Shown piece after piece: positions 8,715 through 57,162 of a DNA stretch of 64,000 bases. Every line of letters begins with the position of its first letter. Positions within the stretch are counted from its first letter, which is position 1. Below the pieces are notes generated by a model, which was not told the DNA's origin, made no database searches, and saw only the letters and a list, made by a program, of their open reading frames with translations. Made by a program: the position numbers and the translations under genes. The DNA comes from an uncultured Bacilli bacterium (GTDB taxonomy: Bacteria > Bacillota_I > Bacilli_A > RF39 > UBA660). The DNA lies in assembly GCA_910585045.1 (NCBI GenBank), contig CAJUCD010000001.1, positions 111,573 to 175,572 on the forward strand, written 5' to 3'.

Positions 8715-8721
8715 GTTATAG

Positions 8722-41173: not shown

Positions 41174-41242
41174 AACTTTGACTATTGAGTGTTTAGGAGC
41201 ACCTCATATTTTTTAAGTCATATATTATTATAGGTGATTTAT

Positions 41243-41548
41243 ATGGATGAAAGAGCACGAAAGAAGATTGTAATTGATCCAGGGCATGGTGGGGAAGACC
41301 CTGGAACTAGTGCTAATGGAATAGTAGAAAAAGATTATACTTTGCAAATAAGTAAGTATATGGCAGATAGGTTAAGCGATTTAGGAATAGAAAATGCTTT
41401 GACTAGAGATGCTGATGTTACTTTGAGTTCTACAGATAGACCTAAGAAGGCTCAAAGTTTATTTGGTAGTGGAAGTGATGTTATTTTGGTATCTAATCAC
41501 ATAAATGCAGGTGGAGGAGATAATCGTTGTGTAACAAAACCTGTATAA
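41243..41548 (+). pseudogene. 5' fragment of split N-acetylmuramoyl-L-alanine amidase (CwlC-like, no signal peptide)
   Basis: IVIDPGHGGEDPGT...LVSNHINAGGG (Amidase_3). The reading frame then runs into element DNA and stops after 10 foreign codons. Confidence 0.85.
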
Positions 41549-41632
41549 CAATTAAAGCTAATAGAGTTTGATTTAGTCAAACTTTATTTTTTCGTTCATT
41601 TATTTTATCATAGTAGCATGAAAGGAGAATTT

Positions 41633-42307
41633 ATGAACAAATCTTATAAATACAAAGATTCTTTTTACTTTTTTGATCATGATATTTTTAATGATATGTT
41701 TAATAGAAAATGTAATAAGGATAGATTAATGATTAAAGATATGGAAGAACAGTTAGCAAATGTTATTAATGTATCAAAAGATACAGTTCATAGTTGGCGT
41801 TATAAAACTTATAGTCCTAATGATTTAAATCTTGTTAACGATATAGCAAATTATTTTGGGTATGAAAAGGATGTACTATTGTGTAAGAAGGGTGGAGATG
41901 CAAAAATGAAGAAAATGTCAGATATTGAATTGATGTCGGTAAAAAGGGTATATGAATCAATAATAGAATTTTTAGAATATTTCTACAAAACAGATGGGTT
42001 TAATGACTTATGGTTTGATTTTGAAAAAATTGATCCCTCGTTAAGAGAAGAAAAATTATGGGAAATCGCTGAAAAAGAGCATGATAAGGTAATGCTGTCT
42101 TTAAAAAAGGAATATCCTATTATTAGAAAAATACAAATTTATACTGATTTAAGTAATTTTATTTATAATGATTTATATGACATATATGATGGAAAATTAA
42201 CCTATGCATATAGATTTGAAGCGATACCTGATGGAAATCCAACAACTGATGAAGATTATACAAAAGCATATAAAAAGTTAAATGAAATAATTGATTCATA
42301 TTGTTGA
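41633..42307 (+). CDS. XRE-type HTH protein with uncharacterised C-terminal domain
   Basis: HTH-like segment QLANVINVSKDTVHSWRY. It is the first gene inside the element. Confidence 0.5.
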   Translation: MNKSYKYKDSFYFFDHDIFNDMFNRKCNKDRLMIKDMEEQLANVINVSKDTVHSWRYKTYSPNDLNLVNDIANYFGYEKDVLLCKKGGDAKMKKMSDIELMSVKRVYESIIEFLEYFYKTDGFNDLWFDFEKIDPSLREEKLWEIAEKEHDKVMLSLKKEYPIIRKIQIYTDLSNFIYNDLYDIYDGKLTYAYRFEAIPDGNPTTDEDYTKAYKKLNEIIDSYC

Positions 42308-42421
42308 AAATTTATTAAATTCTATTTAATTTTAGGTAATTAAGTAGATTTTTTTATGAAACTTATTTTTAAAAATGAAGTTTTAATTTTCTTAGTATCT
42401 AATAAATCTTAAAAGTATTGT

Positions 42422-42483
42422 CCTAGCCAGCACTGAAAACTTACTCCCGCTAAGTTTTCTATAGTGGGAAAATTCCCAAACCC
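42422..42483 (+). repeat. left copy of a roughly 65-bp structured inverted repeat flanking the AbiE cassette
   Basis: Hairpins GAAAACTTA(7 nt)TAAGTTTTC and GGGAA-AA-TTCCC. About 75 percent identical to the reverse complement of 44011-44078. Confidence 0.6.
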
Positions 42484-42578
42484 TTTAAAAATATTTTTTT
42501 AACAAATTAATATATTACCATTTACTCTTGTTCCACAAAATGTTACAATGTAGGTACGAGAGTAAAGCGGTGAAAAAT

Positions 42579-43166
42579 ATGAGCAATAAAGAAAAAGTAA
42601 TTGAATTTTTAAATAGTAATCATGGATATATTACTACTGCAGAATTTTTAACATTGGGTATGAGTAAACCTTTAATTCAAAAATTTTTAAATGAAGGATT
42701 AATTGAAAGAGTAAGTTATGGTTTATATATGGATAATAAAATATTAAAAGATGAATATTTTATTTTACAAAAGAAATATCCACTAGCAATATTTTCTTAT
42801 AATACTGCACTACATATTCTTAACTTAACAAATAGAACTCCAATGCAAATAGATATAACTGTTCCTAGAAATAAGAAAGTACGAGGAGATTATAATATTC
42901 ATAGAGTTGCAGAGAAATTTTACAATATTGGAATAATCGAAACCCTAAGTCCAAGTGGAAATCCAGTAAAAATATATAATGCCGAGAGGTGTATTTGTGA
43001 TATGTTAAGAACTGAAGGAGAATTTGATTTAGAACTTCAAAATAGAGTTTTAGATTATTATTTCCATAGTAAAGATAAAGATATTGATAAATTATTAGAA
43101 TATGCGAAGATCTTTAATATTTATGACAAGATTAATACAATCGTGGAGGTAATGATGAAATGGTAG
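42579..43166 (+). CDS. abiEi: type IV toxin-antitoxin system AbiEi-family antitoxin/transcriptional regulator
   Basis: N-terminal wHTH (HGYITTAEFLTLGMSKPLIQKFLNEGLIERVSYGLY). Overlaps the downstream NTase toxin gene by 7 nt. Confidence 0.75.
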   Translation: MSNKEKVIEFLNSNHGYITTAEFLTLGMSKPLIQKFLNEGLIERVSYGLYMDNKILKDEYFILQKKYPLAIFSYNTALHILNLTNRTPMQIDITVPRNKKVRGDYNIHRVAEKFYNIGIIETLSPSGNPVKIYNAERCICDMLRTEGEFDLELQNRVLDYYFHSKDKDIDKLLEYAKIFNIYDKINTIVEVMMKW

Positions 43167-44011
43167 AAGAAAAGATTAAATTAAAAGCAAAAGAACTCGA
43201 AGAAAAGTATAATTTAAATTACTACGAATCATTACAAAGATTTATGTTTGAAAGAATATTAGAAAGAATATCTGTTTCAGAATATCAAGATAACTTTATA
43301 TTAAAAGGGGGATTATTACTTGCTGCAATGTTTGGTGTAGAAAACAGAACAACAAAAGATATGGATACTACAATTATTGGTATAGATATTTCAAAGGATA
43401 AAATGGTAAATGTTTTAAATGAGATATTATCTATTGATTTAAATGATGAAGTTAAATTTGATATTGTAAGTATTACTGATATAAGAGAAGAAGATGACTA
43501 TGGTGGAAATAAATATCATATTACTGGTAGAGTAAATAGTACTAAAGTGAATTTAGAAATTGATATATCAACTGGTGACAAAGTAACACCAAAAGAATTG
43601 AAATTTAAATATCCTTTATTATTTGAAGATAGAAGTATTTTAATCAATAGCTATAATATTGAAACTATACTAGCTGAAAAAATAGAAACTGTTTTAAGAC
43701 GTGGAAAATATAATAGCAGAATGAAAGATTATTATGACATATATTTCTTTTTAACAAAGATAAAAAATGAAATTAATATAAATATATTAAAAGATGCAAT
43801 TAATAATACTTTTACTAAAAGAGATTCTTTTGAATACTTAAATGATTATCGTGAAATTATTAAATCAATCATTGATAGTGATAGAATAAAAACAAATTGG
43901 AAATATTATTCGAAGAAGAATAGTTATGCAAACAATCTAAAAGTAGATCAAATAATGATTTTACTAAACGATTTTATAAAAGAATTAAATTTAGAATTAG
44001 TAACAGTATAG
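43160..44011 (+). CDS. abiEii: AbiEii/AbiGii-family nucleotidyltransferase toxin
   Basis: DUF1814-like FILKGGLLLAAMFG...RTTKDMD NTase core, 283 aa. Confidence 0.75.
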   Translation: MVEEKIKLKAKELEEKYNLNYYESLQRFMFERILERISVSEYQDNFILKGGLLLAAMFGVENRTTKDMDTTIIGIDISKDKMVNVLNEILSIDLNDEVKFDIVSITDIREEDDYGGNKYHITGRVNSTKVNLEIDISTGDKVTPKELKFKYPLLFEDRSILINSYNIETILAEKIETVLRRGKYNSRMKDYYDIYFFLTKIKNEININILKDAINNTFTKRDSFEYLNDYREIIKSIIDSDRIKTNWKYYSKKNSYANNLKVDQIMILLNDFIKELNLELVTV

Positions 44012-44078
44012 GGATTGGGAAACTTCCCATAATATGCGAAAAGTGCTTGTGGGAGGAACTTTTCAATACTTGCTAAGC
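44011..44078 (-). repeat. right (inverted) copy of the structured repeat
   Basis: Hairpins GAAAAGT(13 nt)ACTTTTC and GGGAA-AC-TTCCC. There is a compensatory C-G to G-C change in stem 1 relative to the left copy. Confidence 0.6.
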
Positions 44079-44093
44079 AAAGAAGGTGAAGTA

Positions 44094-44910
44094 ATGAATG
44101 AGCAGTATTTAGATTCTGAAGTCAATGAATATATAGAAATAAAAAGTGATAAATCTGATTTAGAATCAAAATGGGAAATGGCAATTGGACTACAAAAAGT
44201 TGATAATTTAACACCTTCTAAAAATATGAAAGATTTAGTAAAATTAAACATTGAAAATGAAATATCAATCGATGAATTATAAAACAAACTGAAGAATTAC
44301 TATGATGATCTAAATGATAGCTATAATAGAGATGAGTACGAATGTGATTTTGTATCATTAAGAATCATGCAAATGATACAAAATAATATGTTCTTTTTAA
44401 CAATAGATTTTTATAAATATGTTCATTACTTTTTATTTAAAGATGTCTATAAGTTTGCCGGTAAATTTAGAGAAGTTAACATTTCAAAAGATGAAGAAAT
44501 ATTAAACGGAGATACAGTAGTATATTGCGATTATAATAGAATTGGAGATTATCTTATTTATGATTTTTCAGATAAAAGACAAGAAGATTATAAAGAGTTA
44601 AATGCATTAGATAAAATAATAAGTATATCTAATTTTACTTCTTGTATTTGGCAAGTACATCCTTTTATGGAAGGTAATACTCGAACAACAGCAATATTTA
44701 TAATTAAATATTTAAAAGATCTAGGTTATAATATTAATTATTCTTTGTTTAAAGACAATTCAAAATATTTTAGGAATGCATTAATTAGAAGCAACTAGTA
44801 ATGATAACTTAAGTATAAAAGAAGATAATAGTTATTTAATTAAGTTTTATGAGAATTTGTTATTAGGTAAAAATAATAATTTGAATATTGAATATATAAT
44901 GGTTAAATGA
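44094..44910 (+). pseudogene. Fic/DOC-family protein gene inactivated by one in-frame TAA and one frameshift
   Basis: Fic motif HPFMEGNTRT. The ORFs 44034-44282 and 44367-44798 are in the same frame, separated by the TAA at 44280. The C-terminal remainder (ATSNDNLS...FYENLL) continues in the +1 frame to 44910. Confidence 0.7.
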
Positions 44911-44979
44911 ATGATAAAATAATAAAAGGGATAATTGTCAAATAGTGTGTGTAGATACAAAAAAGTGATAATTATTGAA

Positions 44980-45012
44980 ATAGTCAATGTGAATAGCATT
45001 GGCTATTTTTTT
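44980..45012 (+). terminator. rho-independent terminator
   Basis: Stem ATAGTCAATG / CATTGGCTAT followed by T7. Confidence 0.6.
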
Positions 45013-45091
45013 GTGTAATTTTATAAAAACTCCTTTTTAAAATTTGGAAAATATGATAAAATAATAAAGTAAGGAAAGTAAGGAATTAAGT

Positions 45092-45319
45092 ATGAAAAAT
45101 GATAATGAATTGTTAGCAAGTGCTAAAATCACCTCTAAGGGGCAAATTACGGTTCCTAAAAATATAAGAGATATGTTAGAGGTAACTGATGGAGATTCAA
45201 TAGTTTTCTTTAAAGATCAAAATAGTAATATACATATAATAAGTAAAAAGAATTTGAAAGTCTCACCTGAAGATAATAAGCCGTCCATAATTGTACGAGG
45301 GGGTAAAAAAAATGGATAA
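45092..45319 (+). CDS. AbrB/MazE/SpoVT-family small DNA-binding protein
   Basis: SKGQITVPKNIRDMLEVTDGDSIVF. Overlaps the hsdM start by 8 nt. Confidence 0.7.
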   Translation: MKNDNELLASAKITSKGQITVPKNIRDMLEVTDGDSIVFFKDQNSNIHIISKKNLKVSPEDNKPSIIVRGGKKNG

Positions 45320-46883
45320 TATTAAAGAAAAAGAAAGAGAAGAATTACATAAAACTATATGGAAGATTGCTGAGGAACTTAGAGGTTCCGTTGATGGCTG
45401 GGATTTCAAACAATATGTTTTAGGCTTATTGTTTTATAGATTTATATCAGAAAATGTTGAAAATTACGCAAATAAAATTCAGCAAGAATATGGAATTAAA
45501 AACTTTGAATATAAAAACATTACAGATGCTCTTGCAGAAAATGGTAGAGAACAACTTATTGAAGAAAAAGGTTTTTATATAAGGCCCTCTGAATTATTCT
45601 GTAATGTAAGAAAAAATGCAAAAAACAACAAAGATTTAAATATTACTATAAATAAAATATTTAAAAATATAGAAAATTCTTCAAAAGGGCATAAATCAGA
45701 AAAAGATGTTAAGGGCTTATTTGATGATTTTAATGTAAATGATAATAAGTTAGGAGCAACAGTAGAAGAAAGGAATGCACATCTGGTTAAAATGCTTGAT
45801 GCAATAGGAAGTTTAAAATTAGGTGATTATAAAGAAAATACTATTGATGCTTTTGGAGATGCTTATGAATATTTAATGACTATGTATGCTTCAAGTGCTG
45901 GAAAATCTGGAGGAGAGTTTTTTACTCCTCAAGAAGTAGGCGAATTGCTCGCAAGAATAACTCTAATAGGTAAAACAGAAATAAATAAAGTGTATGACCC
46001 CGCCTGCGGTTCGGGATCGCTATTACTAAAATTCGCTAAGGTATTGGGAGAAGTTAATGTAAAAAAAGGGTACTATGGTCAAGAAATAAATTTAACTACT
46101 TATAATTTAGCAAGAATTAATATGTTTTTACATGATATTAACTATACTAAATTTGATATTGCACGAGGAGATACTTTAACTAATCCTAAACATTGGGATT
46201 ATGAACCTTTTGATGCAATTGTTTCTAATCCACCATATTCAACTAGATGGGCTGGGAAATCGGATCCTACACTAATTAATGATGAAAGATTTTCTCCCGC
46301 TGGAATCTTGGCTCCAGAGTCAAAGGCAGACCTTGCATTTACTATGCATATGCTTCATTGGCTTTCAGAACAAGGAACTGCTGCAATAGTACAATTTCCT
46401 GGAGTTTTATATAGGGGCGGGGCTGAGCAAAAAATCAGAAAATATATGGTAGATAATAATTTTGTAGATGCTGTTATACAATTGCCAAGTGATTTGTTTT
46501 TTGGTACCTCAATTTCAACATGTATTTTGGTTTTAAAGAAAAATAAAAATAATAATGATATTCTATTTATAGATGCTTCTAAAGAATTTGTTCGAAGTAC
46601 AAATAAAAATAAATTGTCAGATGAAAATATTAGTAATATTTTAAAGTTAATTGTTAATAGGCAAGAAATTGAAGGTAAATCGACAGTTGTATCAAATGAT
46701 ATAGTTTCAAATAGTTGTTACAATCTTTCAGTTAGTTCTTATTTAAAAATAATTGATAATGAACCCAAAATAGATATTGAAACACTTAATAATAATATAA
46801 AAAAAATTGTTGCAAAACAGCATCAGATTAGAGTAGAACTGGATCAAATAATATCTGAAATAGAAGGTAATTATTATGAGTAG
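45312..46883 (+). CDS. hsdM: type I restriction-modification system methyltransferase subunit
   Basis: Motif I DPACGSGSLL and motif IV VSNPPYS. The ATG at 45312 gives the typical MDNIKEKE...LWKIAEELRG start. Confidence 0.9.
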   Translation: MDNIKEKEREELHKTIWKIAEELRGSVDGWDFKQYVLGLLFYRFISENVENYANKIQQEYGIKNFEYKNITDALAENGREQLIEEKGFYIRPSELFCNVRKNAKNNKDLNITINKIFKNIENSSKGHKSEKDVKGLFDDFNVNDNKLGATVEERNAHLVKMLDAIGSLKLGDYKENTIDAFGDAYEYLMTMYASSAGKSGGEFFTPQEVGELLARITLIGKTEINKVYDPACGSGSLLLKFAKVLGEVNVKKGYYGQEINLTTYNLARINMFLHDINYTKFDIARGDTLTNPKHWDYEPFDAIVSNPPYSTRWAGKSDPTLINDERFSPAGILAPESKADLAFTMHMLHWLSEQGTAAIVQFPGVLYRGGAEQKIRKYMVDNNFVDAVIQLPSDLFFGTSISTCILVLKKNKNNNDILFIDASKEFVRSTNKNKLSDENISNILKLIVNRQEIEGKSTVVSNDIVSNSCYNLSVSSYLKIIDNEPKIDIETLNNNIKKIVAKQHQIRVELDQIISEIEGNYYE

Positions 46884-49162: not shown

Positions 49163-49163
49163 G

Positions 49164-52100
49164 ATGAATATAATTACAGAAAATGATAATACTACGGTTC
49201 TAGGGAAATATGTTCCTGTAACAAAATCAGATAAATCATATCAAAGTGAATCGGAATTAGAATATGAATTAATAAGGACATTATCTTGTCAAGGATATGA
49301 GTACCTCCAAATTAATAAAGATAGTGATTTTATTAATAATTTAAAAAAACAGCTAGAAAGATTAAATAATATTAAATTTACAAATAATGAATGGAATAAG
49401 ATTTACGATAATTATTTATCAAATAATAATGATGGAATTGTTGAGAAAACAAGAAAAGTGCAACAAGACTATATATTTCCTATTGAATTGGATAATGGCG
49501 AATTAAAAAATATTTATATAATAGATAAAGAAAACATACATAATAATTTTTTGCAAGTTATTAATCAATATATTAATAGTGACGGAAATTATAATAATAG
49601 ATATGATGTTTCCATTCTTGTAAATGGATTACCTTTGGTTCATTTAGAATTAAAAAGAAGAGGTATTGATTTAAGAGAAGCCTTTAATCAAATAGATAGA
49701 TACCAAAGGGACTCTTTTTGGGCTGGAACCGGATTATATGAATTTATTCAAATATTTGTAATAAGCAATGGGACTTATACTAAATATTATTCTAATACTA
49801 CTAGAGAATATCATATAAATAATAGTAAAATAAAGAAAAGCAATTCATTTGAATTTACTTCATATTGGGCAGATCAAGAGAATAATACTATAACTGATTT
49901 AATTGATTTTTGTAAAACATTTTTATCAAAGAGAACTTTATTAAACGTTTTAACTAAATATTGTGTATTTACATCAGATGAAGATTTGTTAGTTATGAGA
50001 CCATATCAAATTGTTGCTACTGAAAAAATAATTAACAAAATTGAAATAGCACATAATTATAAATGTTATGGTAGTGTAAAAGCAGGGGGATATATTTGGC
50101 ATACAACAGGTTCTGGAAAAACATTGACTTCCTTTAAAACTGCTCAAATTGCATCTAGCCTGGAATTTATAGATAAAGTATTATTTGTCGTCGATAGAAA
50201 AGATTTGGATTATCAGACCATGAAGGAATATGATCGTTTTAAAAAAGGTTGTGCTAATTCTAATAGTAGTACAAGCATTTTAGAAAAACAATTACGAGAT
50301 AAAGATTCTAAGATTATTATTACTACAATACAAAAATTAGATAGTTTTATCAAGAAAAATATTAACCATGAAGTTTTTTTGAAACATGTTGTATTTATTT
50401 TTGATGAATGTCATAGATCACAGTTTGGCGATATGCATGAAAATATTATAAGAAAATTTAAAAATTATTATATATTTGGGTTTACTGGAACTCCTATATT
50501 TGCAGATAATGCAATGATTAAAAAAGGAATATCTCAAACCACTGAGCAAATCTTTGGAGAAAGATTACATACATATACAATTGTAAATGCTATTAATGAT
50601 AAAAATGTTTTACCCTTTAGATATGAATATATTGGAAGAGTAGATATCAAAGACAATATCGAAGATGAAAAAGTATATGGCATTGATTTAGAAAAGGTAT
50701 ACAATAATAATACTAGAATAGAAAAGATTGTTAATTATATAATTAATTCCTATTCTACTAAGACAAAAACTAGTGAATCTTATGTTTATTCCGTATTAGA
50801 TAATGTGGTTGAAGTGGCTAGAAGCAAAAAAATTGAAGAAATAAAATCTAAAAAAAATATAAGCGGATTTAATTCTATATTTGCTGTTTCGTCAATTCCA
50901 ATGATAAAAAAATATTATGAAGAGTTTAAGAAACATAGTGAATCTAATTTAAAAATTGCACTAATATATTCTTATGGAGTAAATGAAGAAAATGGCTTTG
51001 TAGACGAAAACTCAGAATCTACAGAAAATTTATCTAAATCTGATAGAGATTTTTTAGAGTATGCCATAATAGATTACAATAAGATGTTTGGAACAAGCTA
51101 TGATACATCAGTAGAAAAATTTCAAAACTATTATAAAGATGTTTCATTAAGAATGAAAAACAAAGAAATAGATATTTTGCTTGTAGTAAATATGTTTTTA
51201 ACAGGATTTGATGCAAAAACTTTAAATACCTTATGGGTAGATAAAAATCTTAAATACCATGGATTAATTCAAGCCTTTTCTAGAACTAATAGAATTTTAA
51301 ACAGTGTTAAAACATTTGGGAATATCGTTTCATTTAGAAATTTAGAAAATGATTTAAATAATGCATTATCCTTATTTGGAGATAATAATGCTCATAGTGT
51401 AATTTTACTAAAATCATACGATAGTTATTATAATGGATATAGTGAGGATGGTTATTCATTTATAGGTTACCAAAGTTTAGTTGATGAGCTCAAGTCAAAA
51501 TACCCTTTGGGGATACCAATATTAGGTGAGCAAAATAAAAAGGATTTCATAAAATTATATGGGGCTATTTTGAAAGTTAGTAATATTTTATCATCATTTG
51601 ATCAATTTAAAGGAGAAGAGCTTCTAGAAGCAAGAGAAGTACAAGATTATCATTCTTTATATATTGATTTATATAATGAATTTAGAAATATATCAAAACG
51701 TGATAAAAAAGATATTACAGATGATATAACATTTGAAATGGAACTAATAAAATCAATAGAAGTTAATATTGATTATATACTATCATTGGTTAAGAAATAT
51801 CACGAATCTCATAATCAAGATAAAGAAATTTTAGTAACTATAAACAAAGCGATTATGTCAAGCCCTGATTTAAGAAATAAAAAAGATTTAATTCTAGCGT
51901 TTATTGATTCAATAAATGAAAATTCGGATGATATATATAGCGATTTTGAAATGTTTATGAATAGTAAAAAAAGAGAAGAATTAGATATTATAATTGCGGA
52001 AGAAAAATTGGATGTAGAAGAAACTTATAAATTTATTGAAAAATCTTTTCAAAATGGTGAAGTAAATTCCAATGGTACTGAATTATCAAATATTCTTCCT

Positions 52101-52214
52101 CCTATGAATATGTTTGATCCTGATCACAATAGGCAAAATACAAAAAATAGAGTTGTAAACAAATTGATAAATTTCTTTGAAAAATTTTTTTGCATATCTA
52201 GTAGTAAATTTTAA
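49164..52214 (+). CDS. hsdR: type I restriction enzyme endonuclease subunit
   Basis: Helicase motifs TTGSGKT and FDECHRSQ, about 1016 aa. ATG at 49164 with a GGTGAAG RBS. Confidence 0.9.
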   Translation: MNIITENDNTTVLGKYVPVTKSDKSYQSESELEYELIRTLSCQGYEYLQINKDSDFINNLKKQLERLNNIKFTNNEWNKIYDNYLSNNNDGIVEKTRKVQQDYIFPIELDNGELKNIYIIDKENIHNNFLQVINQYINSDGNYNNRYDVSILVNGLPLVHLELKRRGIDLREAFNQIDRYQRDSFWAGTGLYEFIQIFVISNGTYTKYYSNTTREYHINNSKIKKSNSFEFTSYWADQENNTITDLIDFCKTFLSKRTLLNVLTKYCVFTSDEDLLVMRPYQIVATEKIINKIEIAHNYKCYGSVKAGGYIWHTTGSGKTLTSFKTAQIASSLEFIDKVLFVVDRKDLDYQTMKEYDRFKKGCANSNSSTSILEKQLRDKDSKIIITTIQKLDSFIKKNINHEVFLKHVVFIFDECHRSQFGDMHENIIRKFKNYYIFGFTGTPIFADNAMIKKGISQTTEQIFGERLHTYTIVNAINDKNVLPFRYEYIGRVDIKDNIEDEKVYGIDLEKVYNNNTRIEKIVNYIINSYSTKTKTSESYVYSVLDNVVEVARSKKIEEIKSKKNISGFNSIFAVSSIPMIKKYYEEFKKHSESNLKIALIYSYGVNEENGFVDENSESTENLSKSDRDFLEYAIIDYNKMFGTSYDTSVEKFQNYYKDVSLRMKNKEIDILLVVNMFLTGFDAKTLNTLWVDKNLKYHGLIQAFSRTNRILNSVKTFGNIVSFRNLENDLNNALSLFGDNNAHSVILLKSYDSYYNGYSEDGYSFIGYQSLVDELKSKYPLGIPILGEQNKKDFIKLYGAILKVSNILSSFDQFKGEELLEAREVQDYHSLYIDLYNEFRNISKRDKKDITDDITFEMELIKSIEVNIDYILSLVKKYHESHNQDKEILVTINKAIMSSPDLRNKKDLILAFIDSINENSDDIYSDFEMFMNSKKREELDIIIAEEKLDVEETYKFIEKSFQNGEVNSNGTELSNILPPMNMFDPDHNRQNTKNRVVNKLINFFEKFFCISSSKF

Positions 52215-52503
52215 CATTTTATGATAGGATTATTATAGTCACTTGGGAATGTGACTAATGAAACATATAAACATATAGTGTCTTTTAATATAAAGACATA
52301 AATAGGTAAATAACCTATGATTTAAAGTTCAAAATATAAGAACTGGTTACATATTTATTCCAACAAACAAGTTTGGATAGTATTCCCTTGTTTTTGTAAT
52401 GGATTAATATGTCCAGTTCTTTTTACGTGTTCCTAAAAATACTGGTAAAGGAAGGAGGATAAAATGGAACTACTAGATTTGATAATCTTATATTGGAAAG
52501 ATA

Positions 52504-53016
52504 ATGAAAAAAGAAATAGAACCTTTTATAAATTTAGTAATACCAGAAGCAGTATTAGGAGATAATAGACTAACATTTTTAGAAAGAGTGTTATTAATTG
52601 AAATAGTGTCGCTATGTAAGAAAAATGGATATTGTTGGCCAACTAATAGATATTTTATGGGTAAGTTTGATTGCACAAAACCTACAATATCAAAAAGTAT
52701 AAGTAGTTTATCAAAATATAACTATATTGATATAGAAATCAATAATAGTGAAAAAAATAACGCAAAGAGAATAATTAGGTTATCTGAGGTATTAAAGAAA
52801 AGAATAACAAGTATTCAAGAAAATGCTAATGCTAGTATTCAAAATAATTTTAACCATTATAGTAAATATAAAAATAATAAAGAAGATATATTAAACGATA
52901 TTTATTCAGTTGATGATGAAGGTAATGAATATTGGCATGGAATAAAAATTGAATCAGAAAAAATGACAGATGAAGAAGTGAGAGAATTAGAAGATTTATT
53001 AAAAAAATTCAAGTAA
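52504..53016 (+). CDS. winged-helix DNA-binding protein of mobile-element type (replication/regulatory?)
   Basis: LTFLERVLLIEIVSLCKKNGYCWPTNRYFMGKFDCTKPTISKSISSL resembles phage/ICE HTH proteins. Confidence 0.5.
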   Translation: MKKEIEPFINLVIPEAVLGDNRLTFLERVLLIEIVSLCKKNGYCWPTNRYFMGKFDCTKPTISKSISSLSKYNYIDIEINNSEKNNAKRIIRLSEVLKKRITSIQENANASIQNNFNHYSKYKNNKEDILNDIYSVDDEGNEYWHGIKIESEKMTDEEVRELEDLLKKFK

Positions 53017-53076
53017 TAAAGGAGGAAAGAATAAATAATATGTGTAAACAAGTCATAAATTTAAATGAGGTGGCTT

Positions 53077-53169
53077 ATGTTTAATATAACTGAAACTTTT
53101 AAAAATGATTCTCCTAATTTTAATGAACTGGTATCTAAATATATAAAAAGTGTGATTAATAATGTCTGA
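53077..53169 (+). CDS. small ORF (30 aa) upstream of the recombinase
   Basis: GAGGTGG RBS. Overlaps the next small ORF via ATGTCTGA. Confidence 0.25.
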   Translation: MFNITETFKNDSPNFNELVSKYIKSVINNV

Positions 53170-53245
53170 CATCATAGATGTGTTAAGTTTAATGTGTTAT
53201 ACTATAAGTGGCTTTAATTTGTTATACAAAGAGAGAGGAGAGTAA
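53162..53245 (+). CDS. small ORF (27 aa) immediately upstream of the recombinase
   Basis: Translationally coupled chain ending 3 nt before the recombinase TTG start. Confidence 0.25.
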   Translation: MSDIIDVLSLMCYTISGFNLLYKERGE

Positions 53246-53248
53246 AAA

Positions 53249-54835
53249 TTGTATAACACTTTAATACAGATGCCAGAATATTATAGAGCAGGAATTTATA
53301 TAAGATTATCAGAAGCTGATGAAGGAAAATCTTACGAATCTGATAGTGAGAGTGTCCTTAATCAAAGAAATATACTAATGAATTATGTAAAAGAAAAAGG
53401 ATTTGTCTTTATTGATGAATATGTTGATGATGGTTATTCAGGTACTAACTTTGATAGACCTGGGTTTCAAAGACTAATTGATGACATAAAAAGTAAGAAA
53501 ATCAATTTAGTTATTGTTAAAGATATGTCTAGATTAGGTAGAGATCATATCCTAACAGGTTATTATGTAGAAAATTTTTTCCCTGAAAATGGAATAAGAT
53601 TTATTTCTATGCAAGAAGGATATGACAATGCTATTAACCAAGCTAGTAATGATTCATCAACATTTATATTTGCTTGTAATGATTATTATAGTAAACAAAA
53701 TTCTATTAAAATTCGTAATGTTCTAAATGATAAAAGAAGAAATGGTAAATTTATAGGTAGTATGCCAAGTTTCGGGTATTTAAGGGATCCTGAAGATAAA
53801 GGACACTTAATACCAGATCCAGAATATGCACCTGTAGTTAAGAAAATATTTGAAATGGCTTATAATGGAGTAGGATTATCTGATATAACTACTTATTTGA
53901 ATGACAATAAGATTAAAACACCAAGTAGTTTAAAAAGGAAAAATCCTAATTCTAAAGGTAAGTACAATGAAATGTGGACTATTTCTTCTGTTAAAAAGAT
54001 ATTAAAGAATCAGATGTATGTTGGTGATATGGTTCAAAGTACACAGACTAAAGTGTCATATAAATCTAAAAAGAAAAAGGATTTGCCAAAGAGTAATTGG
54101 GATGTAGTGCCTAACACTCATGAAGCTTTAGTTGATAGATATATATTTGAAAGTGTACAAAATAATGTTAAAAGAACTACCAAATCTAATGTTACTAATC
54201 GTGATAAGAGATTATTTGAAAACTTACTATACTGCAAAGAATGTGGTAATACTTTAACAGTATCTTATAGAAAGAATCATAATTATTGGACTATTAACTG
54301 TAATAGGTATTCAAGAGATCCTCGAAGAAGAATGTGTGAACCACATTTTAGTCCATATGATAAACTTGAAGTTGCTTTGCTAGAAGTTATCAAAAAGACT
54401 TGTAAAGAGTATATTGATAGTTTAAATATTACTGAACTATCTAAGGATGCAATAAGCAGTAAGAAGAAAGATAATCATGCTAATGAACAAATTAATGAGC
54501 TAAAGAAACGTGAAAAAGAATATGTAAGTAAATTGGATATGCTTTATCAAGATAAGTTTAAAGGTGTAATATCAGAAGAAACTTTTACAAGAATTACTAA
54601 AGATACAGAAAATTCATTGAATAAGATACGATATGAGATAGAAAAATTACGAAATAATAAAAAGGAAGAAAAAGTAAATAAAAATGACTTAAAAGAATAT
54701 GAAGATAAAATTAGAGAACTTATAAATATTGAAAATCCATCAAGAGAATTTTTACAAGCGTTAATAGATAAAATTATTATTGATAAAGATAGAAATGTTG
54801 AAATAATGTATAAATTTAGTATATTGAATAATTAA
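53249..54835 (+). CDS. large serine recombinase (integrase)
   Basis: N-terminal resolvase catalytic domain YIRLSEAD...DDGYSGTNFDRPGFQRL...VKDMSRLGRD, a recombinase domain, a Zn-ribbon CKECG...C, and a coiled-coil tail. Confidence 0.9.
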   Translation: MYNTLIQMPEYYRAGIYIRLSEADEGKSYESDSESVLNQRNILMNYVKEKGFVFIDEYVDDGYSGTNFDRPGFQRLIDDIKSKKINLVIVKDMSRLGRDHILTGYYVENFFPENGIRFISMQEGYDNAINQASNDSSTFIFACNDYYSKQNSIKIRNVLNDKRRNGKFIGSMPSFGYLRDPEDKGHLIPDPEYAPVVKKIFEMAYNGVGLSDITTYLNDNKIKTPSSLKRKNPNSKGKYNEMWTISSVKKILKNQMYVGDMVQSTQTKVSYKSKKKKDLPKSNWDVVPNTHEALVDRYIFESVQNNVKRTTKSNVTNRDKRLFENLLYCKECGNTLTVSYRKNHNYWTINCNRYSRDPRRRMCEPHFSPYDKLEVALLEVIKKTCKEYIDSLNITELSKDAISSKKKDNHANEQINELKKREKEYVSKLDMLYQDKFKGVISEETFTRITKDTENSLNKIRYEIEKLRNNKKEEKVNKNDLKEYEDKIRELINIENPSREFLQALIDKIIIDKDRNVEIMYKFSILNN

Positions 54836-54910
54836 AACTTTTTCCCAAGTCGGGAAGAAGTATAACATAAAATGATAAACTACTTATAAGCTGCATTAGA
54901 AGGTGGAGTA

Positions 54911-56200
54911 ATGAAAGCAAAAAAAGTATCAAGAATAAAAGATATCGAAGTTTTATTTGAAGTAATTAAAAATATGAAAGAATATAGAGAAAATAGCGAA
55001 AATGGGTTAGTTATATTATTAAATGGTTCATGGGGATCAGGGAAAACTACTTTTTTAAATGATTTTGAAAAGGCGATAAGTGAAAGTAGTGATTATGGGC
55101 TATTATGCAAATATAATTCCTACGAGTATGATTTTTATGAAACTGCTTATATTCCCTTTTTTTCAACGATTGAAGATAGATTAAAGTTGGGTAATAATTT
55201 TAATAAAATTGTAAAATGTTTAGGAAGAGATACATGTAATTTTTCTTTATCTACTTTATATATGGTGATTAATGCTATTACAAAAATTGTTAATGTAGAT
55301 TTAAACGATCTAAAAGATAATATGATAGAAATTCAAGAAGAAGATTACTTAAAGAATTTTAAAGATTTTAAAGAATGCAAAGAAGAAATAAAGAAAAAAT
55401 TAAAAAAGTTATGTAAAAAGAACACTCAAATATTTATTATAGATGAATTGGATAGATGTAAGCCAAGTTTTGCTATGGAAACTTTAGAAATTATTAAGCA
55501 TTTTTTTGATGTTGATAATTGCGTTTTTATTATAGCAGTAGATAAGATTCAATTACAAGAAGCAGCAAAAACAATATATGGGCAAGATATGGATAGTGAA
55601 AAGTATTTTAGTAAATTTTTTGACTATCAGCATAATTTATTTCCTTTAGATTTTTATGAAACTATAGACATTAATGATATAGAAGAAATAGATATTATAA
55701 TTAAGCAATCTGCAAAAATATTTGAATTTTTAGATGTATCAACTAGAGATAGTAAGAAAATTTTTAATGAATTTGTTATTAAATATAAAAATTTTACTGA
55801 GAATAATAATTCTTGGTCATTAGAGCAGTCGATATTTATGATTTTTTTATTAACATTAAAGTATATTGATTTATTATTTTATAATGAAATTTTACATGGT
55901 AATTATCCTCAATTTTCAAAAAAGCTAATTAATAGTTTAGAAAGCAAGCTAAATAATTACCATAGTTTATTGAATACAAAAATAGGTTCAGAAAACGAAA
56001 CTTTTGATAGTGTTCTAAGAAATCTTGATACATATTTTGATTGTCGTTATGTTGAGCTCCATCGAGCATATTATTCAGATTCTTTCAGAGGAGAAAAATA
56101 TCAAAGAGAAAAAAATGCTCTTATTAGTTTAATGAATTATGTCCCTCAAATTGAAGTAAATTTAACTTATAAGCAAACTATAAAAAGAATAATTAATTAG
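54911..56200 (+). CDS. KAP-family P-loop NTPase
   Basis: Walker A GSWGSGKTTF and Walker B IFIIDELDRC. It is the last gene before attR. Confidence 0.7.
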   Translation: MKAKKVSRIKDIEVLFEVIKNMKEYRENSENGLVILLNGSWGSGKTTFLNDFEKAISESSDYGLLCKYNSYEYDFYETAYIPFFSTIEDRLKLGNNFNKIVKCLGRDTCNFSLSTLYMVINAITKIVNVDLNDLKDNMIEIQEEDYLKNFKDFKECKEEIKKKLKKLCKKNTQIFIIDELDRCKPSFAMETLEIIKHFFDVDNCVFIIAVDKIQLQEAAKTIYGQDMDSEKYFSKFFDYQHNLFPLDFYETIDINDIEEIDIIIKQSAKIFEFLDVSTRDSKKIFNEFVIKYKNFTENNNSWSLEQSIFMIFLLTLKYIDLLFYNEILHGNYPQFSKKLINSLESKLNNYHSLLNTKIGSENETFDSVLRNLDTYFDCRYVELHRAYYSDSFRGEKYQREKNALISLMNYVPQIEVNLTYKQTIKRIIN

Positions 56201-56220
56201 TTACACAATGACTATCGCCA

Positions 56221-57162
56221 GGTGGAGATGGTGCTGAAATAATTTATTCTTTAAGAAATAGTGATAATTTATCTCGGACTATTGCTAATGAATTTGTTAA
56301 ATCTGGTCAAAATGTAAGAAAATATTATCAAAGAAGATTACCAAGCGATTCTAGTAAAGACTATTATTACATGCTTAGAAATACCCCTAACAATGAATCT
56401 ATAATTGTAGAATATGGTTTTGCAGATTCTAAAGGTGATGATGTTAATCAAATAAAAAATAATTGGAAAGAACTTACTGAGGCTGTTGTGAGGGCTTTGG
56501 CAAGTTATGTTGGTGTTCCTTATACGCCTCCAAATGGTCAAGGTAATATGGGCAATTATTATGTAGTAAAAAAAGGTGATACTTTATATGGAATTGCCCG
56601 TAGTTATGGAATTAGTTTAGATGAACTAAAAGCTGCTAATAATTTAACTAGTAATACATTGACAGTAGGAAGTACTCTTGTAATTCCTAGTAAGCAAAAC
56701 GAAAATACATCACAGGATTATTATATCGTTCAACCTGGAGATACATTGTATAAAATAGCAAATAAATATAATATGACTGTGAATGAATTAAAGACTTTAA
56801 ATAATTTAACTAATAATGTTCTCAATATTGGGCAAAGATTAAAAGTTGTTAAAAATGATATGCCAGCGGCTAATGTATATATAGTAAAATCTGGTGATTC
56901 TTTGTATAGTATTGCTAAACGTTATGGAGTGTCTGTTGATGAATTAAAACGAGTTAATAATAAGACTAGTAATTTGCTTACAATTGGAGAAAGTTTAAAA
57001 ATTCCTTTAGATAATCAAGATAATAATTATTATACAGTTAAATCTGGTGATTCTTTATGGTCGATATCTCAAAAGTTTAATACAACAGTTGATAATTTAA
57101 AAAGGTTAAATAATTTAAATAGTAATATTTTAAGCATTGGTATGAATCTGAAAATTTCTTAG
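56221..57162 (+). pseudogene. 3' fragment of the split amidase (rest of Amidase_3 domain plus four LysM repeats)
   Basis: The frame is open from GGDGAEIIYSLRN at 56221 and in frame with the track ORF 56371-57162. There are four YxVKxGDxLxxIAxxY LysM units. Confidence 0.85.

What the first reader, a model, noticed from the sequence alone, without database searches (positions are those of the whole stretch)
41243..57162. A cwlC-like amidase gene is split by a 14.7-kb serine-recombinase element, and excision would rebuild it in frame
**What the sequence shows**
- The Amidase_3 ORF breaks after HINAGGG at about 41516.
- It resumes at 56221 (GGDGAEIIYS...), followed by four LysM repeats.
- Both junctions carry the same 9-bp core CAGGTGGAG in the same codon phase.
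- Recombination within the core therefore gives cacataaatgCAGGTGGAGatggtgctgaa, which encodes HINAGGDGAEIIY.
- This resembles the HVNSGGGTGFESY block of B. subtilis CwlC.
- The two element-side arms are 15/17 inverted repeats. Joined, they form a 47-bp palindromic attP, the canonical large-serine-recombinase architecture.

**Why it matters**
- The amidase has no signal peptide, like the mother-cell lysis amidase CwlC.
- The genome encodes sporulation genes.
- The arrangement therefore resembles developmentally excised intervening elements such as skin in sigK and SPbeta in spsM.
- Here the interrupted gene would be a cell-wall amidase and the cargo is defence genes rather than a prophage.
Basis: partly seen in the sequence, partly recalled or inferred. 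Interest (0 to 1): 0.8.

Follow-up and report, generated by a model that had tools for sequence, protein, structure and literature searches.

The report
Sporulation lysin gene split by defence island
A cell-wall amidase gene with a late-sporulation-type promoter is cut in two by a 14.7-kb mobile island carrying anti-phage genes, the same codon is cut in dozens of uncultured gut Bacilli species, and exact excision would rebuild the gene, much like the known DNA elements that are cut out of sporulation genes.

Summary
The split gene is real. Amidase_3 starts at 41243 and breaks at 41514. It resumes at 56223 and ends at 57162, with four LysM repeats. A 14,708-bp element lies between the halves. 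It carries a large serine recombinase (LSR), AbiE, type I RM with PrrC, and a KAP NTPase.

Conspecific empty sites, with flanks 99.96-100% identical, place the crossover at one GG dinucleotide (41513-14 / 56221-22). Excision rebuilds a 403-aa protein with HINAGGGDGAE, identical to a database protein. The deduced attP is 21-GG-21, and the family consensus is a perfect palindrome.

This is one member of a large family.
- 253 stretches in species-representative genomes encode a relative of the recombinase.
- 57 of the best 80 loci show the same amidase codon cut.
- Two unrelated LSR families cut the same gene at other conserved motifs.

The amidase has no signal peptide. It has a conserved AC-N16-CATAnnnTA (sigmaK-type) promoter in 27 species. 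The window also encodes SpoIIR and SpoVT.

Excision in the sporulating mother cell is therefore plausible but unproven. No attP was found in assemblies. This copy lacks the TnpV gene found in most relatives. A conserved 30-aa ORF is the candidate directionality factor.

I rate it a new variant of a known kind.

The parts
41201..41227 (+). sigmaK-type promoter candidate of the amidase: AC (41201-02), a 16-nt spacer, then CATATATTA (41219-27). SD AGGTGA lies at 41232-37.
   Evidence: CATAnnnTA sits at a fixed distance from the SD in 27 of 33 species. C at -17 occurs in 24 of 27 and TA at +7/+8 in 27 of 27. Binomial P is 3e-32 for the -10 motif and 2e-35 for the full motif against the background rate in 2.6 Mb. 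The scan found no sigma70-type site upstream. The rule that -35 is AC for sigmaK and ATA for sigmaE comes from PMC3789822.
41243..41514 (+). 5' part of the amidase gene (residues 1-91, ending ..SNHINAGG). As it stands, the ORF reads on into the element to a stop at 41548.
   Evidence: Identical to residues 1-91 of the intact P0001.
41513..41514 (+). Left copy of the GG crossover dinucleotide (attL).
   Evidence: Comparison of attL, attR and the empty-site attB.
41515..41535 (+). P' arm of attP (AGGAGATAATCGTTGTGTAAC).
   Evidence: Inverted repeat of the P arm, 17 of 21. Conserved in 31 related attL junctions.
41543..41558 (+). Conserved element-internal motif GTATAACAATTAAAGC. Its inverted copy lies in the recombinase leader. 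Role unknown.
   Evidence: Unique in the window on this strand. The motif pair is present in 23 of 27 complete elements and both copies are absent in 3 of 27.
41618..42307 (+). 229-aa protein with no family match (cluster C33, shared only with L056). It replaces TnpV + C3 of most relatives.
42528..44011 (+). AbiEi (42528..43166) and AbiEii (43160..44011) abortive-infection / toxin-antitoxin pair.
   Evidence: Pfam. PADLOC 5.9e-60 and 4.6e-90.
44034..44798 (+). Fic-like gene (PADLOC candidate PDC-S72) broken into two ORFs of 82 and 143 aa. Probably a pseudogene.
   Evidence: Both ORFs fall in cluster C5, whose members are typically 324 aa. Pfam Fic. PDC-S72 2.5e-43.
45092..52214 (+). AbrB/MazE-like small protein (45092..45319), then a type I restriction-modification operon: HsdM 45291..46883, HsdS 46876..48072, PrrC-like anticodon nuclease 48065..49162, HsdR 49128..52214.
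   Evidence: Pfam. PADLOC MTase_I 7e-123, Specificity_I 3e-97, PrrC 1.2e-96, REase_I E=0.
52504..53016 (+). C1: 170-aa HTH_36 / DnaD_N-like protein, like the N-terminal part of replication initiators. It lies just upstream of the recombinase module in 22 of 27 elements.
53040..53169 (+). Two tiny overlapping ORFs. A 14-aa ORF (53040..53084, MCKQVINLNEVAYV) has a stop that overlaps the start of a conserved 30-aa ORF (53077..53169, MFNITETFKNDSPNFNELVSKYIKSVINNV). The 30-aa ORF is the candidate recombination directionality factor.
   Evidence: The 30-32-aa ORF is present in 73 of 75 loci and keeps its length and frame through substitutions and a 2-codon insertion. Public pipelines call it as a gene. 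Upstream lies ATA-N16-CATAAAnTT, which is sigmaE-like but sits in a region conserved as a whole. 14-aa ORF. Known RDFs of such elements are tiny: GirX is 42 aa (PMC5595907) and CD1234 is 72 aa (PMC5025042).
53195..53248 (+). Recombinase promoter and leader: extended -10 TGtTATACT (53195-53203), an inverted copy of the 17-nt motif GGCTTTAATTTGTTATAC (53210-53227), an SD, and a TTG start.
   Evidence: Conserved across 53 distinct leaders.
53249..54835 (+). Large serine recombinase, 528 aa.
   Evidence: Resolvase, Recombinase and Zn_ribbon_recom domains. Ser21 in ..YIRLSEAD.. is invariant in 16 relatives. The closest characterised relatives are TnpX (PDB 2mhc, 3e-25) and TndX (33.6% identity).
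54911..56200 (+). KAP-family P-loop NTPase (PADLOC candidate defence protein PDC-S20).
56200..56220 (+). P arm of attP (GTTACACAATGACTATCGCCA).
   Evidence: Conserved in 57 related attR junctions in genomes and at least 64 in metagenome contigs.
56221..56222 (+). Right copy of the GG crossover dinucleotide (attR).
56223..57162 (+). 3' part of the amidase gene: the rest of Amidase_3 plus four LysM repeats.
   Evidence: Identical to the C-terminal part of P0001.

Best explanation
**What it is**
- The window holds one member of a large family of non-phage integrative elements.
- These elements are moved by a TnpX/TndX-clade large serine recombinase and carry variable anti-phage cargo.
- They insert at a GG dinucleotide inside the DNA that encodes the conserved catalytic motif SNHINAGG|GDGAE of an Amidase_3-LysM gene.
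- The hosts are small-genome, spore-forming gut Bacilli, probably of the RF39 type.

**Shown**
- The gene is cut at this position.
- Exact attL x attR recombination restores a 403-aa ORF that exists in nature.
- The same codon is cut in dozens of species.
- The target gene has no signal peptide and carries a conserved sigmaK-type promoter.

**Inferred**
- The amidase is a late mother-cell product. It would be either a CwlC-like lysin that frees the spore or a spore-envelope amidase.
- The element is excised in the terminally differentiated mother cell, so the gene can be expressed there.
- The forespore chromosome keeps the element. The island is therefore inherited at no cost to the host, as with skin, SPbeta and gin.

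**Hypothesis**
- The recombinase is made from its own sigmaA-like promoter.
- Direction and timing are set by the conserved 30-aa ORF just upstream, which is preceded by a sigmaE-like motif.
For: - **Empty sites and exact rebuild.**
- **Crossover.** A 2-bp GG overlap sits at the centre of symmetry of the attP. The family consensus attP, GTTACACAATGACTATCGCCA-GG-TGGCGATAGTCATTGTGTAAC, is a perfect palindrome.
- **Family size.** 253 relatives were found in species-representative genomes. 57 attR and 31 attL junctions lie at the same codon, while the amidase fragments are only 43-89% identical.
- **Promoter.** The sigmaK-type promoter is conserved in 27 of 33 upstream regions, P about 1e-32. The AC versus ATA rule is from PMC3789822.
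- **Precedent for the gene's role.** The sigmaK-dependent amidases CwlC and CwlH lyse the B. subtilis mother cell (PMC517825). C. difficile also has sigmaK-dependent amidases (PMC3789822).
- **Sporulating host.** SpoIIR and SpoVT are in the window. RF39 is predicted to sporulate (PMC10868615).
- **Fragments stay intact.** 56 of 60 C-terminal fragments are intact ORFs of 249-449 aa. The other 4 are cut by a third LSR element.
- **Convergent targeting.** Three unrelated LSR families target three motifs of this one gene.
- **Tiny conserved ORF.** It is present in 73 of 75 loci. Known RDFs in such elements are 42-72 aa (PMC5595907, PMC5025042).
- **Recombinase expression.** In C. difficile skin the recombinase is constitutive and the RDF is under sigmaE control (PMC5025042).
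Against: - No attP or circular junction was found. Metagenome contigs gave 0 attP against at least 64 attR, and IMG/VR gave none.
- No read-level data could be examined.
- Promoter assignment rests on a motif only. The host's sigK gene was not seen.
- This copy lacks TnpV and C3, which follow attL in 19 and 15 of 27 relatives.
- A weak hairpin with a T-run follows attL. The scan did not call it a terminator.
- The closest characterised recombinases, TnpX and TndX, are reported to excise without a directionality factor (Lyras 2004, cited in PMC3158075). Excision could therefore be untimed.
- The elements clearly move between species: a recombinase 96-99% identical sits next to amidase fragments 46% identical, and a 100% identical 5-kb stretch occurs in another context. 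Intact fragments could therefore reflect recent arrival and not selection.
- The sigmaE-like motif before the 30-aa ORF lies in a stretch conserved as a whole and overlaps a 14-aa ORF.
Confidence: 0.55

Rival explanations
1. This is an ordinary mobile defence island that knocks out a dispensable or redundant amidase. The conserved catalytic-motif DNA is simply a reliable landing site, as tRNA genes are for other islands. Excision happens only sporadically for transfer and is not tied to sporulation. Carriers live without this enzyme or use a paralogue.
For: - Clear horizontal spread.
- Empty and occupied sites exist in the same species.
- Some genomes have an intact paralogue beside the split or decayed copy: L074, L069 and L183.
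- No attP was found in assemblies.
- TnpX and TndX relatives need no directionality factor (PMC3158075).
Against: - It does not explain why three unrelated LSR families converge on one gene that carries a sigmaK-type promoter.
- It does not explain why nearly all fragments remain intact ORFs across dozens of species.
- Every experimentally studied LSR element inside a mother-cell sporulation gene is excised developmentally (PMC4191935, PMC5595907, PMC5025042).
Confidence: 0.32
2. This particular copy is locked in place. Having lost TnpV and C3 and gained other genes at its left end, it can no longer excise, so the amidase is permanently inactive in this strain.
For: - TnpV and C3 are absent here but present in most relatives.
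- TnpV was postulated to be Xis-like (PMC3158075).
- One cargo gene, the Fic-like gene, is already broken.
Against: - The recombinase, both att arms, the 30-aa ORF and the leader are all intact and close to the family consensus.
- The same TnpV-less architecture occurs in another species, L056.
- A 100% identical right end sits at a different site in L183, which indicates recent mobility.
- TnpX-type transposition does not need TnpV (Lyras 2004 title, in PMC3158075).
Confidence: 0.1
3. The arrangement is an assembly artefact or chimera that joins an island to a repeated amidase sequence.
For: Many related loci come from metagenome-assembled genomes, and one junction (L183) could be affected by a shared repeat.
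Against: - The same junctions, to the base, occur in at least 9 independent assemblies of this element.
- Equivalent junctions occur in about 57 species-representative genomes and at least 64 metagenome contigs.
- The empty site differs from the occupied site exactly as a 2-bp crossover predicts.
Confidence: 0.01

Closest known systems
gin element in gerE of Bacillus cereus ATCC 10987 (GirC recombinase + 42-aa GirX RDF)
   Same: - It is a non-prophage element that splits a late mother-cell gene.
- It uses a large serine recombinase.
- Its RDF is tiny and often unannotated.
- Exact excision rebuilds the ORF (PMC5595907).
   Different: - The target gene differs: an amidase, not the regulator gerE.
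- No homology to GirC or GirX was shown.
- The cargo here is anti-phage systems.
- The family is spread over dozens of species of an uncultured lineage.
- Excision here is untested.
skin elements in sigK (B. subtilis SpoIVCA; C. difficile CD1231 + RDF CD1234)
   Same: - An LSR element lies inside a mother-cell gene.
- In C. difficile the recombinase is constitutive, from a sigmaA promoter with inverted repeats around the start.
- A small sigmaE/SpoIIID-controlled RDF confines excision to the mother cell (PMC5025042).
- This is the layout I propose here.
   Different: - skin is a prophage remnant in a regulator gene whose rebuilding gates the sporulation programme.
- Here the split gene is a terminal effector (a lysin).
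- The element has no phage genes.
- The 17-nt motif fits the C. difficile SpoIIID box KRTAACARK only as a pattern match.
SPbeta prophage in spsM (SprA + SprB)
   Same: - The LSR is expressed constitutively.
- The RDF is under sporulation control.
- The element is kept in the spore genome and removed in the mother cell (PMC4191935, PMC5499854).
   Different: - SPbeta is an active phage of about 134 kb (size from my own knowledge).
- Here the elements are 4-15 kb with no virion genes.
Tn4451/Tn4453 and Tn5397-type clostridial elements (TnpX / TndX, TnpV)
   Same: - These hold the closest characterised recombinases: TnpX catalytic domain at 3e-25 and TndX at 33.6% identity.
- TnpV (PF14198) is present in 19 of 27 family members.
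- They also use a 2-bp crossover.
   Different: - Those elements use GA dinucleotides at many sites and carry Mob genes or conjugation genes (from my own knowledge, and PMC3158075).
- This family uses GG at one conserved protein-coding motif.
- No relaxase was seen in the clusters I annotated.
- The window copy lacks TnpV.
B. subtilis CwlC / CwlH mother-cell lysis amidases
   Same: - An N-terminal Amidase_3 catalytic domain with no signal peptide.
- sigmaK-type expression, shown for CwlC and CwlH (PMC517825) and inferred here.
   Different: - The C-terminal wall-binding module here is 4 LysM repeats. CwlC has a SPOR domain (my own knowledge).
- Orthology was not tested.
- The LysM repeats also score above threshold for the SafA/ExsA spore-coat LysM model, so a spore-envelope role is equally open.
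Heterocyst-specific excision elements of Anabaena (XisF fdxN element and others)
   Same: - Programmed excision of elements from genes needed only in a terminal cell type.
- Several elements can occur in one gene set.
- The NCBIfam XisF model is the best, though sub-threshold, named hit of the recombinase.
   Different: - A different phylum and a different developmental programme.
- The score of 90 bits is far below the 375-bit cutoff, so this recombinase is not a member of that family.

Membership tests
Large-serine-recombinase integrative element | Recombinase with an N-terminal resolvase catalytic domain, a recombinase domain and a zinc-ribbon/coiled-coil domain, and a conserved catalytic Ser | tested here: met
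   PF00239, PF07508 and PF13408 all score above their cutoffs. Ser21 in YIRLSEAD is invariant in 16 relatives.
Large-serine-recombinase integrative element | attL, attR and attB are related by exchange at a 2-bp crossover, with no target duplication beyond those 2 bp | tested here: met
   Empty sites L001-L006 compared with the window show that GG is the only overlap.
Large-serine-recombinase integrative element | attP of about 40-50 bp with imperfect inverted arms centred on the crossover | tested here: met
   21-GG-21 with 17 of 21 matches in the window. The family consensus is a perfect palindrome.
Large-serine-recombinase integrative element | Recombination activity demonstrated | not testable with these tools
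   There is only indirect evidence: occupied and empty sites in one species, and an identical element in two contexts.
Sporulation-specific gene-intervening element (skin / SPbeta / gin type) | The host is an endospore former | tested here: met
   SpoIIR (PF09551, 1e-31) and SpoVT are in the window. A SleB-type hydrolase lies nearby in L001. RF39 is predicted to sporulate (PMC10868615). Sporulation itself has not been observed, because the lineage is uncultured.
Sporulation-specific gene-intervening element (skin / SPbeta / gin type) | The interrupted gene is expressed only in the mother cell | tested here: inconclusive
   A conserved AC-N16-CATAnnnTA motif is present and no sigma70-type site was found. 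No expression data are available.
Sporulation-specific gene-intervening element (skin / SPbeta / gin type) | Exact excision restores a functional ORF | tested here: met
   The rebuilt ORF equals the natural 403-aa protein P0001 and has a full Amidase_3 match.
Sporulation-specific gene-intervening element (skin / SPbeta / gin type) | Excision occurs during sporulation, in the mother cell, and the element is retained in the spore | not testable with these tools
   No reads or cultures were available. No attP was found in assemblies.
Sporulation-specific gene-intervening element (skin / SPbeta / gin type) | A directionality factor under sporulation control | tested here: inconclusive
   A conserved 30-aa ORF with an upstream sigmaE-like motif is a candidate only.
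Tn4451/Tn5397-type LSR transposons | TnpX/TndX-like recombinase | tested here: inconclusive
   These are the best characterised hits, but identity is only about 33%.
Tn4451/Tn5397-type LSR transposons | TnpV and a mobilisation (Mob) gene on the element | tested here: not met
   The window element has neither. TnpV is present in 19 of 27 relatives. No relaxase was seen in the clusters I annotated.
Tn4451/Tn5397-type LSR transposons | Insertion at GA dinucleotides in many target sites | tested here: not met
   The crossover is GG at one conserved coding motif in nearly all loci.
Prophage | Virion structural, packaging and lysis genes | tested here: not met
   The window's element proteins have no such PHROG or Pfam hits. 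Elements as small as 4.2 kb exist.
CwlC orthologue | Amidase_3 without a signal peptide, plus a C-terminal SPOR domain | tested here: not met
   Amidase_3 starts at residue 9 and there is no leader. The C-terminal part is four LysM repeats and not SPOR. The protein may work like CwlC, but it cannot be filed as CwlC.

The most novel reading that the evidence does not exclude
In an uncultured order of gut Bacilli, one late-sporulation cell-wall amidase gene serves as a shared landing pad for at least three unrelated large-serine-recombinase element families. They insert at DPG|HGG, NAGG|GDGAE and the first LysM GD|TL. The elements ferry anti-phage defence systems between species. In the mother cell the gene is reassembled from two or three pieces by programmed excisions. 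Defence islands would thus be inherited through the spore at no cost, and spore release would depend on DNA rearrangement. The 30-aa peptide would be a new minimal directionality factor. The 17-nt motif pair would link the left end of the element to recombinase expression.
Probability: 0.4. Interest if true: 0.85.

Novelty: new variant of a known kind. Interest (0 to 1): 0.7.

Why it matters
**If excision is developmental**
- This would be the first intervening element reported in a mother-cell lysin-type gene.
- It would also be the first in the uncultured RF39-type Bacilli.
- It would be the first case where the cargo is systematically anti-phage defence.
- It would show that terminal differentiation offers mobile islands a free parking place on a much wider scale than the handful of Bacillus and Clostridium cases.
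- Multiply split genes, with two elements in one amidase in 10 of 80 loci, would be a new level of programmed rearrangement in Firmicutes.

**Whatever the timing**
- The family supplies a well-defined LSR, attB and attP set. It has a perfect 44-bp palindromic consensus attP, a GG core and many natural variants.
- It offers a candidate 30-aa directionality factor. Both are useful for recombinase engineering.
- It is a marker for finding defence systems in genomes that cannot be cultured.

Tried and rejected
Rejected. Empty sites show a GG crossover 3 bp away in register.
- **Search for attP or circular forms.** A strict degenerate attP pattern gave 0 hits in metagenome contigs and 0 in IMG/VR. 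A pattern for the P arm only gave 93 stretches. Of these, 64 were attR by my regex, several were attR with variant amidase codons, and none was attP. The family is therefore well represented in that collection but appears only in the integrated form.
- **RNA hairpin hiding the recombinase start codon (TGTTATACAA / TTGTATAACA).** The stem is nearly invariant, so there is no covariation to test. The fold is no better than shuffles, z = -1.0. Not supported.
- **RNA pairing between the attL-proximal motif and the recombinase leader.** I saw only one-sided changes and no compensatory pairs. The common variants are G.U-compatible or form a 1-nt bulge. Left as unexplained. DNA operator sites, including a SpoIIID-box-like TATAACAAT, are equally possible.
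- **Terminator after attL (41565-41592).** The scan did not call it, because the stem has fewer than 3 G-C pairs.
- **Forespore-type promoters.** I read the spoVT upstream sequence by eye as a check on consensus transfer. The result was ambiguous, so I did not use it.
- **Same-sample coexistence of empty and occupied sites.** The samples listed for the two forms did not overlap. Only 6 and 9 places were shown.
- **Literature.** Six targeted searches found no earlier description of an amidase or cwlC intervening element, or of this family. The library lacks most subscription journals.
- **Not used.** Structure prediction, fold search and the representative-protein search.

Full report
**1. The observation**

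The + strand carries an ORF that starts at ATG 41243. It is preceded by the SD AGGTGA at 41232-37. It encodes the first 91 residues of an Amidase_3 domain, ending ..VSNHINAGG. It then reads into unrelated sequence and stops at 41548.

The amidase frame resumes at about 56221 (..GGDGAEIIYSLRN..). It runs to 57162 through the rest of the catalytic domain and four LysM repeats.

CAGGTGGAG occurs exactly twice in the window, at 41508 and 56219, in the same codon phase. Joining there gives an in-frame 402-aa ORF with an end-to-end Amidase_3 match.

**2. The true junction**

A search with the rebuilt protein found P0001.

Its contigs, L001-L006, show the same synteny as the window: rpmH, rnpA, yidC, jag, a Na/Ca exchanger, the amidase, a 424-aa protein and a roughly 1280-aa protein. 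They carry no insertion. L001 is 99.96% identical to the window over 10.3 kb on the left and 100% identical over 7.8 kb on the right.

All six empty sites read ..CACATAAATGCAGGTGGTGGAGATGGTGCTGAA...
- attL agrees with this sequence only up to ..GCAGGTGG.
- attR agrees only from GGTGGAGAT.. onward.
- The shared stretch is a single GG, at 41513-14 and 56221-22.

That 2-bp overlap is the signature of serine-recombinase exchange. Joining at GG gives exactly P0001, with HINAGGGDGAE. All seven intact homologues I read have three glycines here.

The element is 14,708 bp. The deduced attP is GTTACACAATGACTATCGCCA-GG-AGGAGATAATCGTTGTGTAAC. It has two 21-bp arms that match at 17 of 21 positions, and the GG lies exactly at the centre of symmetry.

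**3. Content of the element**

All genes lie on the + strand.

| Coordinates | Product |
|---|---|
| 41618.. | 229-aa protein, no family match |
| 42528..44011 | AbiEi and AbiEii |
| 44034..44798 | Fic-like gene broken into two ORFs |
| 45092.. | AbrB/MazE-like small protein |
| 45291..52214 | Type I RM: HsdM, HsdS, PrrC-like nuclease, HsdR |
| 52504.. | 170-aa HTH_36 / DnaD_N-like protein (C1) |
| 53040.., 53077.. | Two tiny ORFs |
| 53249..54835 | Large serine recombinase |
| 54911.. | KAP NTPase |

PADLOC confirms AbiE, the type I RM subunits, PrrC (1e-96) and two candidate defence families. PHROGs finds no virion genes. G+C is 25.3% in the element against 27.8-28.0% in the flanks.

**4. 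A large family with one target**

The recombinase has thousands of relatives at 64-99% identity. A scan of one genome per species found 253 stretches that encode a relative.

The best 80 loci come from records titled uncultured Bacilli, Tenericutes, Mollicutes or Erysipelotrichaceae. They also include Clostridium sp. CAG:433, CAG:710 and CAG:762, Mycoplasma sp. CAG:472, and a circular 1.31-Mb chromosome. The sources are human, mouse, rabbit and goat guts. CAG-433 is a family of the order RF39 in GTDB (PMC8035907). The order of the window's own host was not determined.

The junctions are conserved across these loci.
- In 57 of the 80 loci a conserved P arm (GTTACACAwTGACyATCrsCA) is followed by GG and the host codons for G-G-D-G-A-E.
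- In 31 loci ..SNHINAGG is followed by the P' arm (GGCGATrGTCATTGTGTAAC).
- The consensus attP is a perfect 21-GG-21 palindrome.

The amidase fragments are only 43-89% identical to the window's, while the recombinases are 64-99% identical. For example, L009 is 96% against 46%, and L074 is 99% against 46%.

A 5,037-bp stretch 100% identical to the window's right end is joined, at the same GG, to a different sequence in L183. The elements therefore move between species.

Metagenome contigs add at least 64 more attR junctions.

**5. Family anatomy**

Twenty-six complete relatives are 4.2-14.4 kb long. The common layout, left to right, is:
- attL
- the motif GTATAACAATTAAAGCC
- TnpV (PF14198; 19 of 27 elements)
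- a 99-aa protein, C3 (15 of 27)
- variable cargo
- C1 (22 of 27)
- the tiny ORFs
- an extended -10 element
- a leader that holds the inverted copy of the 17-nt motif
- the recombinase (27 of 27)
- more cargo
- attR

The variable cargo includes type I RM, DUF4268, a Schlafen-type helicase, GmrSD, T5orf172, AbiE, Fic and Bro-N proteins.

The window's copy lacks TnpV and C3. L056 shares that left end.

The 30-32-aa ORF is present in 73 of 75 loci with sequence available. It keeps its frame and length through substitutions and a two-codon insertion. Public pipelines call it as a gene.

**6. The target gene looks like a late mother-cell gene**

The catalytic domain starts at residue 9, so there is no signal peptide.

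Upstream regions from 33 species cannot be aligned, apart from one motif at a fixed distance from the SD.
- CATAnnnTA is present in 27 of 33 regions.
- C lies at -17 in 24 of 27, and A at -18 in 18 of 27.
- The motif is therefore AC-N16-CATAnnnTA.
- Against its frequency in 2.6 Mb of the same loci, the binomial P is 3e-32 for the -10 motif and 2e-35 for the full motif.
- The negatives are mostly loci where another element sits at the 5' end of the gene.

In C. difficile and B. subtilis, sigmaE and sigmaK promoters share the -10 element and differ at -35, which is ATA for sigmaE and AC for sigmaK (PMC3789822). No sigma70-type site was found upstream in the window.

B. subtilis CwlC and CwlH are sigmaK/GerE-dependent amidases that lyse the mother cell (PMC517825). 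C. difficile has two sigmaK-dependent amidases proposed for the same role (PMC3789822).

The window itself encodes SpoIIR and SpoVT, and RF39 is predicted to sporulate (PMC10868615).

The LysM repeats also exceed the cutoff of the SafA/ExsA spore-coat LysM model. A spore-envelope role is therefore as open as mother-cell lysis.

**7. The same gene is hit by two more recombinase families**

- In L024, L032, L053, L067, L073 and L077, a recombinase only about 31% identical to ours ends just before an amidase fragment. That fragment starts at the HGG of the DPGHGG motif.
- In L018, L050, L057 and L072, a third recombinase (36-37% identical) sits in an element of 3.2-5.5 kb. This element cuts the first LysM repeat after ..V-K-x-G-D, and the gene resumes immediately after it.
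- Ten of the 80 loci therefore have the amidase in three pieces.
- Apart from those third-element cuts, 56 of 60 C-terminal fragments are intact ORFs of 249-449 aa with 3-6 LysM repeats.
- Decayed targets next to an intact paralogue also exist, in L183, L069 and L074.

**8. Mechanism**

*Shown.* The element integrated by serine-recombinase exchange at GG. Exact excision restores the gene. The family targets DNA that encodes a catalytic motif under strong protein-level constraint, which explains why it can enter many species.

*Inferred.* The amidase is transcribed late in the mother cell. Excision takes place there, where loss of the element does not affect inheritance. This matches skin, SPbeta and gin (PMC5025042, PMC4191935, PMC5595907).

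*Hypothesis.*
- The recombinase is made from its own extended -10 promoter, as CD1231 and SprA are.
- The 30-aa ORF is the directionality factor. GirX is 42 aa and CD1234 is 72 aa.
- Upstream of this ORF lies ATA-N16-CATAAAnTT, with ATA where the amidase promoter has AC. This is the sigmaE pattern.
- That whole stretch is conserved and overlaps a 14-aa ORF, so the motif is weak evidence.

*Main alternative.* The element could be an ordinary island in a dispensable gene. TnpX and TndX, the closest characterised recombinases, are reported to excise without a helper (PMC3158075). Untimed excision therefore cannot be excluded.

I put the developmental model at 0.55, plain insertional inactivation at about 0.32, and a locked copy at about 0.1.

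**9. What did not work**

- No attP was found in two collections.
- The proposed leader hairpin is not significant.
- The 17-nt motif pair co-occurs: both copies are present in 23 of 27 elements and both absent in 3 of 27. It shows no compensatory changes.
- The motif contains TATAACAAT, which fits the C. difficile SpoIIID box KRTAACARK (PMC5025042). That is a pattern match only.

**10. Novelty**

Six targeted literature searches found no report of an intervening element in an amidase or cwlC-like gene, or of this family.

The kind is known: an LSR element inside a sporulation gene. The new aspects are:
- the target gene
- the host lineage
- the systematic defence cargo
- the spread across dozens of species
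- the multiple independent insertions in one gene

I rate it a new variant of a known kind, with interest 0.7. The key step, timed excision, is still to be shown.

Noticed in passing
L024, L032, L053, L067, L073, L077 (e.g. L024:1611-3300): A second, unrelated large serine recombinase (about 31% identical) ends just upstream of an amidase fragment that starts at HGG of the DPGHGG motif. In these genomes the same amidase is cut at two places by two element families.
   Followed up: partly
L018:14226-18194; also L050, L057, L072: A third recombinase family (36-37% identical) sits in an element of 3.2-5.5 kb that cuts the first LysM repeat of the same amidase after ..VKxGD. The gene resumes right after the element. 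L067 has a similar recombinase followed by a LysM fragment about 2 kb downstream of its amidase.
   Followed up: partly
window 41543-41558 and 53210-53227: A 17-nt motif just inside attL has one inverted copy in the recombinase leader. Both copies are present in 23 of 27 elements and both are absent in 3. The leader copy is never a perfect complement: it has A-to-G changes or a 1-nt insertion. The function is unknown. It could be an operator, a SpoIIID-like box or an RNA pairing site.
   Followed up: partly
L183:1-5100 (SRR30218849): 5,037 bp that are 100% identical to the window's right end are joined at the same GG to ..TGCGGAAGTTGTGTG... This looks like a remnant of an amidase ('GAEVV'). 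An intact amidase paralogue lies 1.5 kb downstream. L069 shows a similar arrangement.
   Followed up: partly
L136, L140, L143, L173 (metagenome contigs): The conserved P arm and GG are followed by a conserved non-amidase sequence (..CGAGTTTACTTACCATT..TTTGATTGGG). This suggests a second conserved target for some family members.
   Followed up: no
window 8132-8724 (-): A full-length OLE RNA (Rfam RF01071, 367 bits).
   Followed up: no
window 17676-17861 (-) and 27896-27981 (-): A T-box leader at 17676-17861 and a small SRP RNA at 27896-27981.
   Followed up: no
window 13907-14416 (+) and 17914-18435 (-): SpoIIR and SpoVT homologues. These are direct evidence that the host keeps sporulation genes.
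   Followed up: partly
window 48065-49162 (+): A PrrC-type anticodon nuclease gene (PADLOC 1.2e-96) lies between hsdS and hsdR. This is the classic prr arrangement, here carried on a mobile island.
   Followed up: partly
window 44034-44798 (+): A Fic-like gene (PADLOC PDC-S72) is split into ORFs of 82 and 143 aa. Relatives are about 324 aa, so this copy is probably a pseudogene.
   Followed up: partly
window 53040-53084 (+): A 14-aa ORF (MCKQVINLNEVAYV) has a strong SD. Its stop codon overlaps the start of the conserved 30-aa ORF (ATGTTTAA), which suggests translational coupling. Similar peptides (M.K.[LV]INLNEVAYV) occur in relatives.
   Followed up: partly
window 34217-34666 (-): A ComK-family gene lies between dnaN and recF. 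The Pfam hit is on the identical gene in L001, in a small-genome gut bacterium. Natural competence could be one route for the spread of these relaxase-less islands.
   Followed up: no
window 57312-58586 and 58704-62573 (+): Two conserved proteins of 424 aa and 1289 aa directly downstream of the amidase have no Pfam or NCBIfam match.
   Followed up: no
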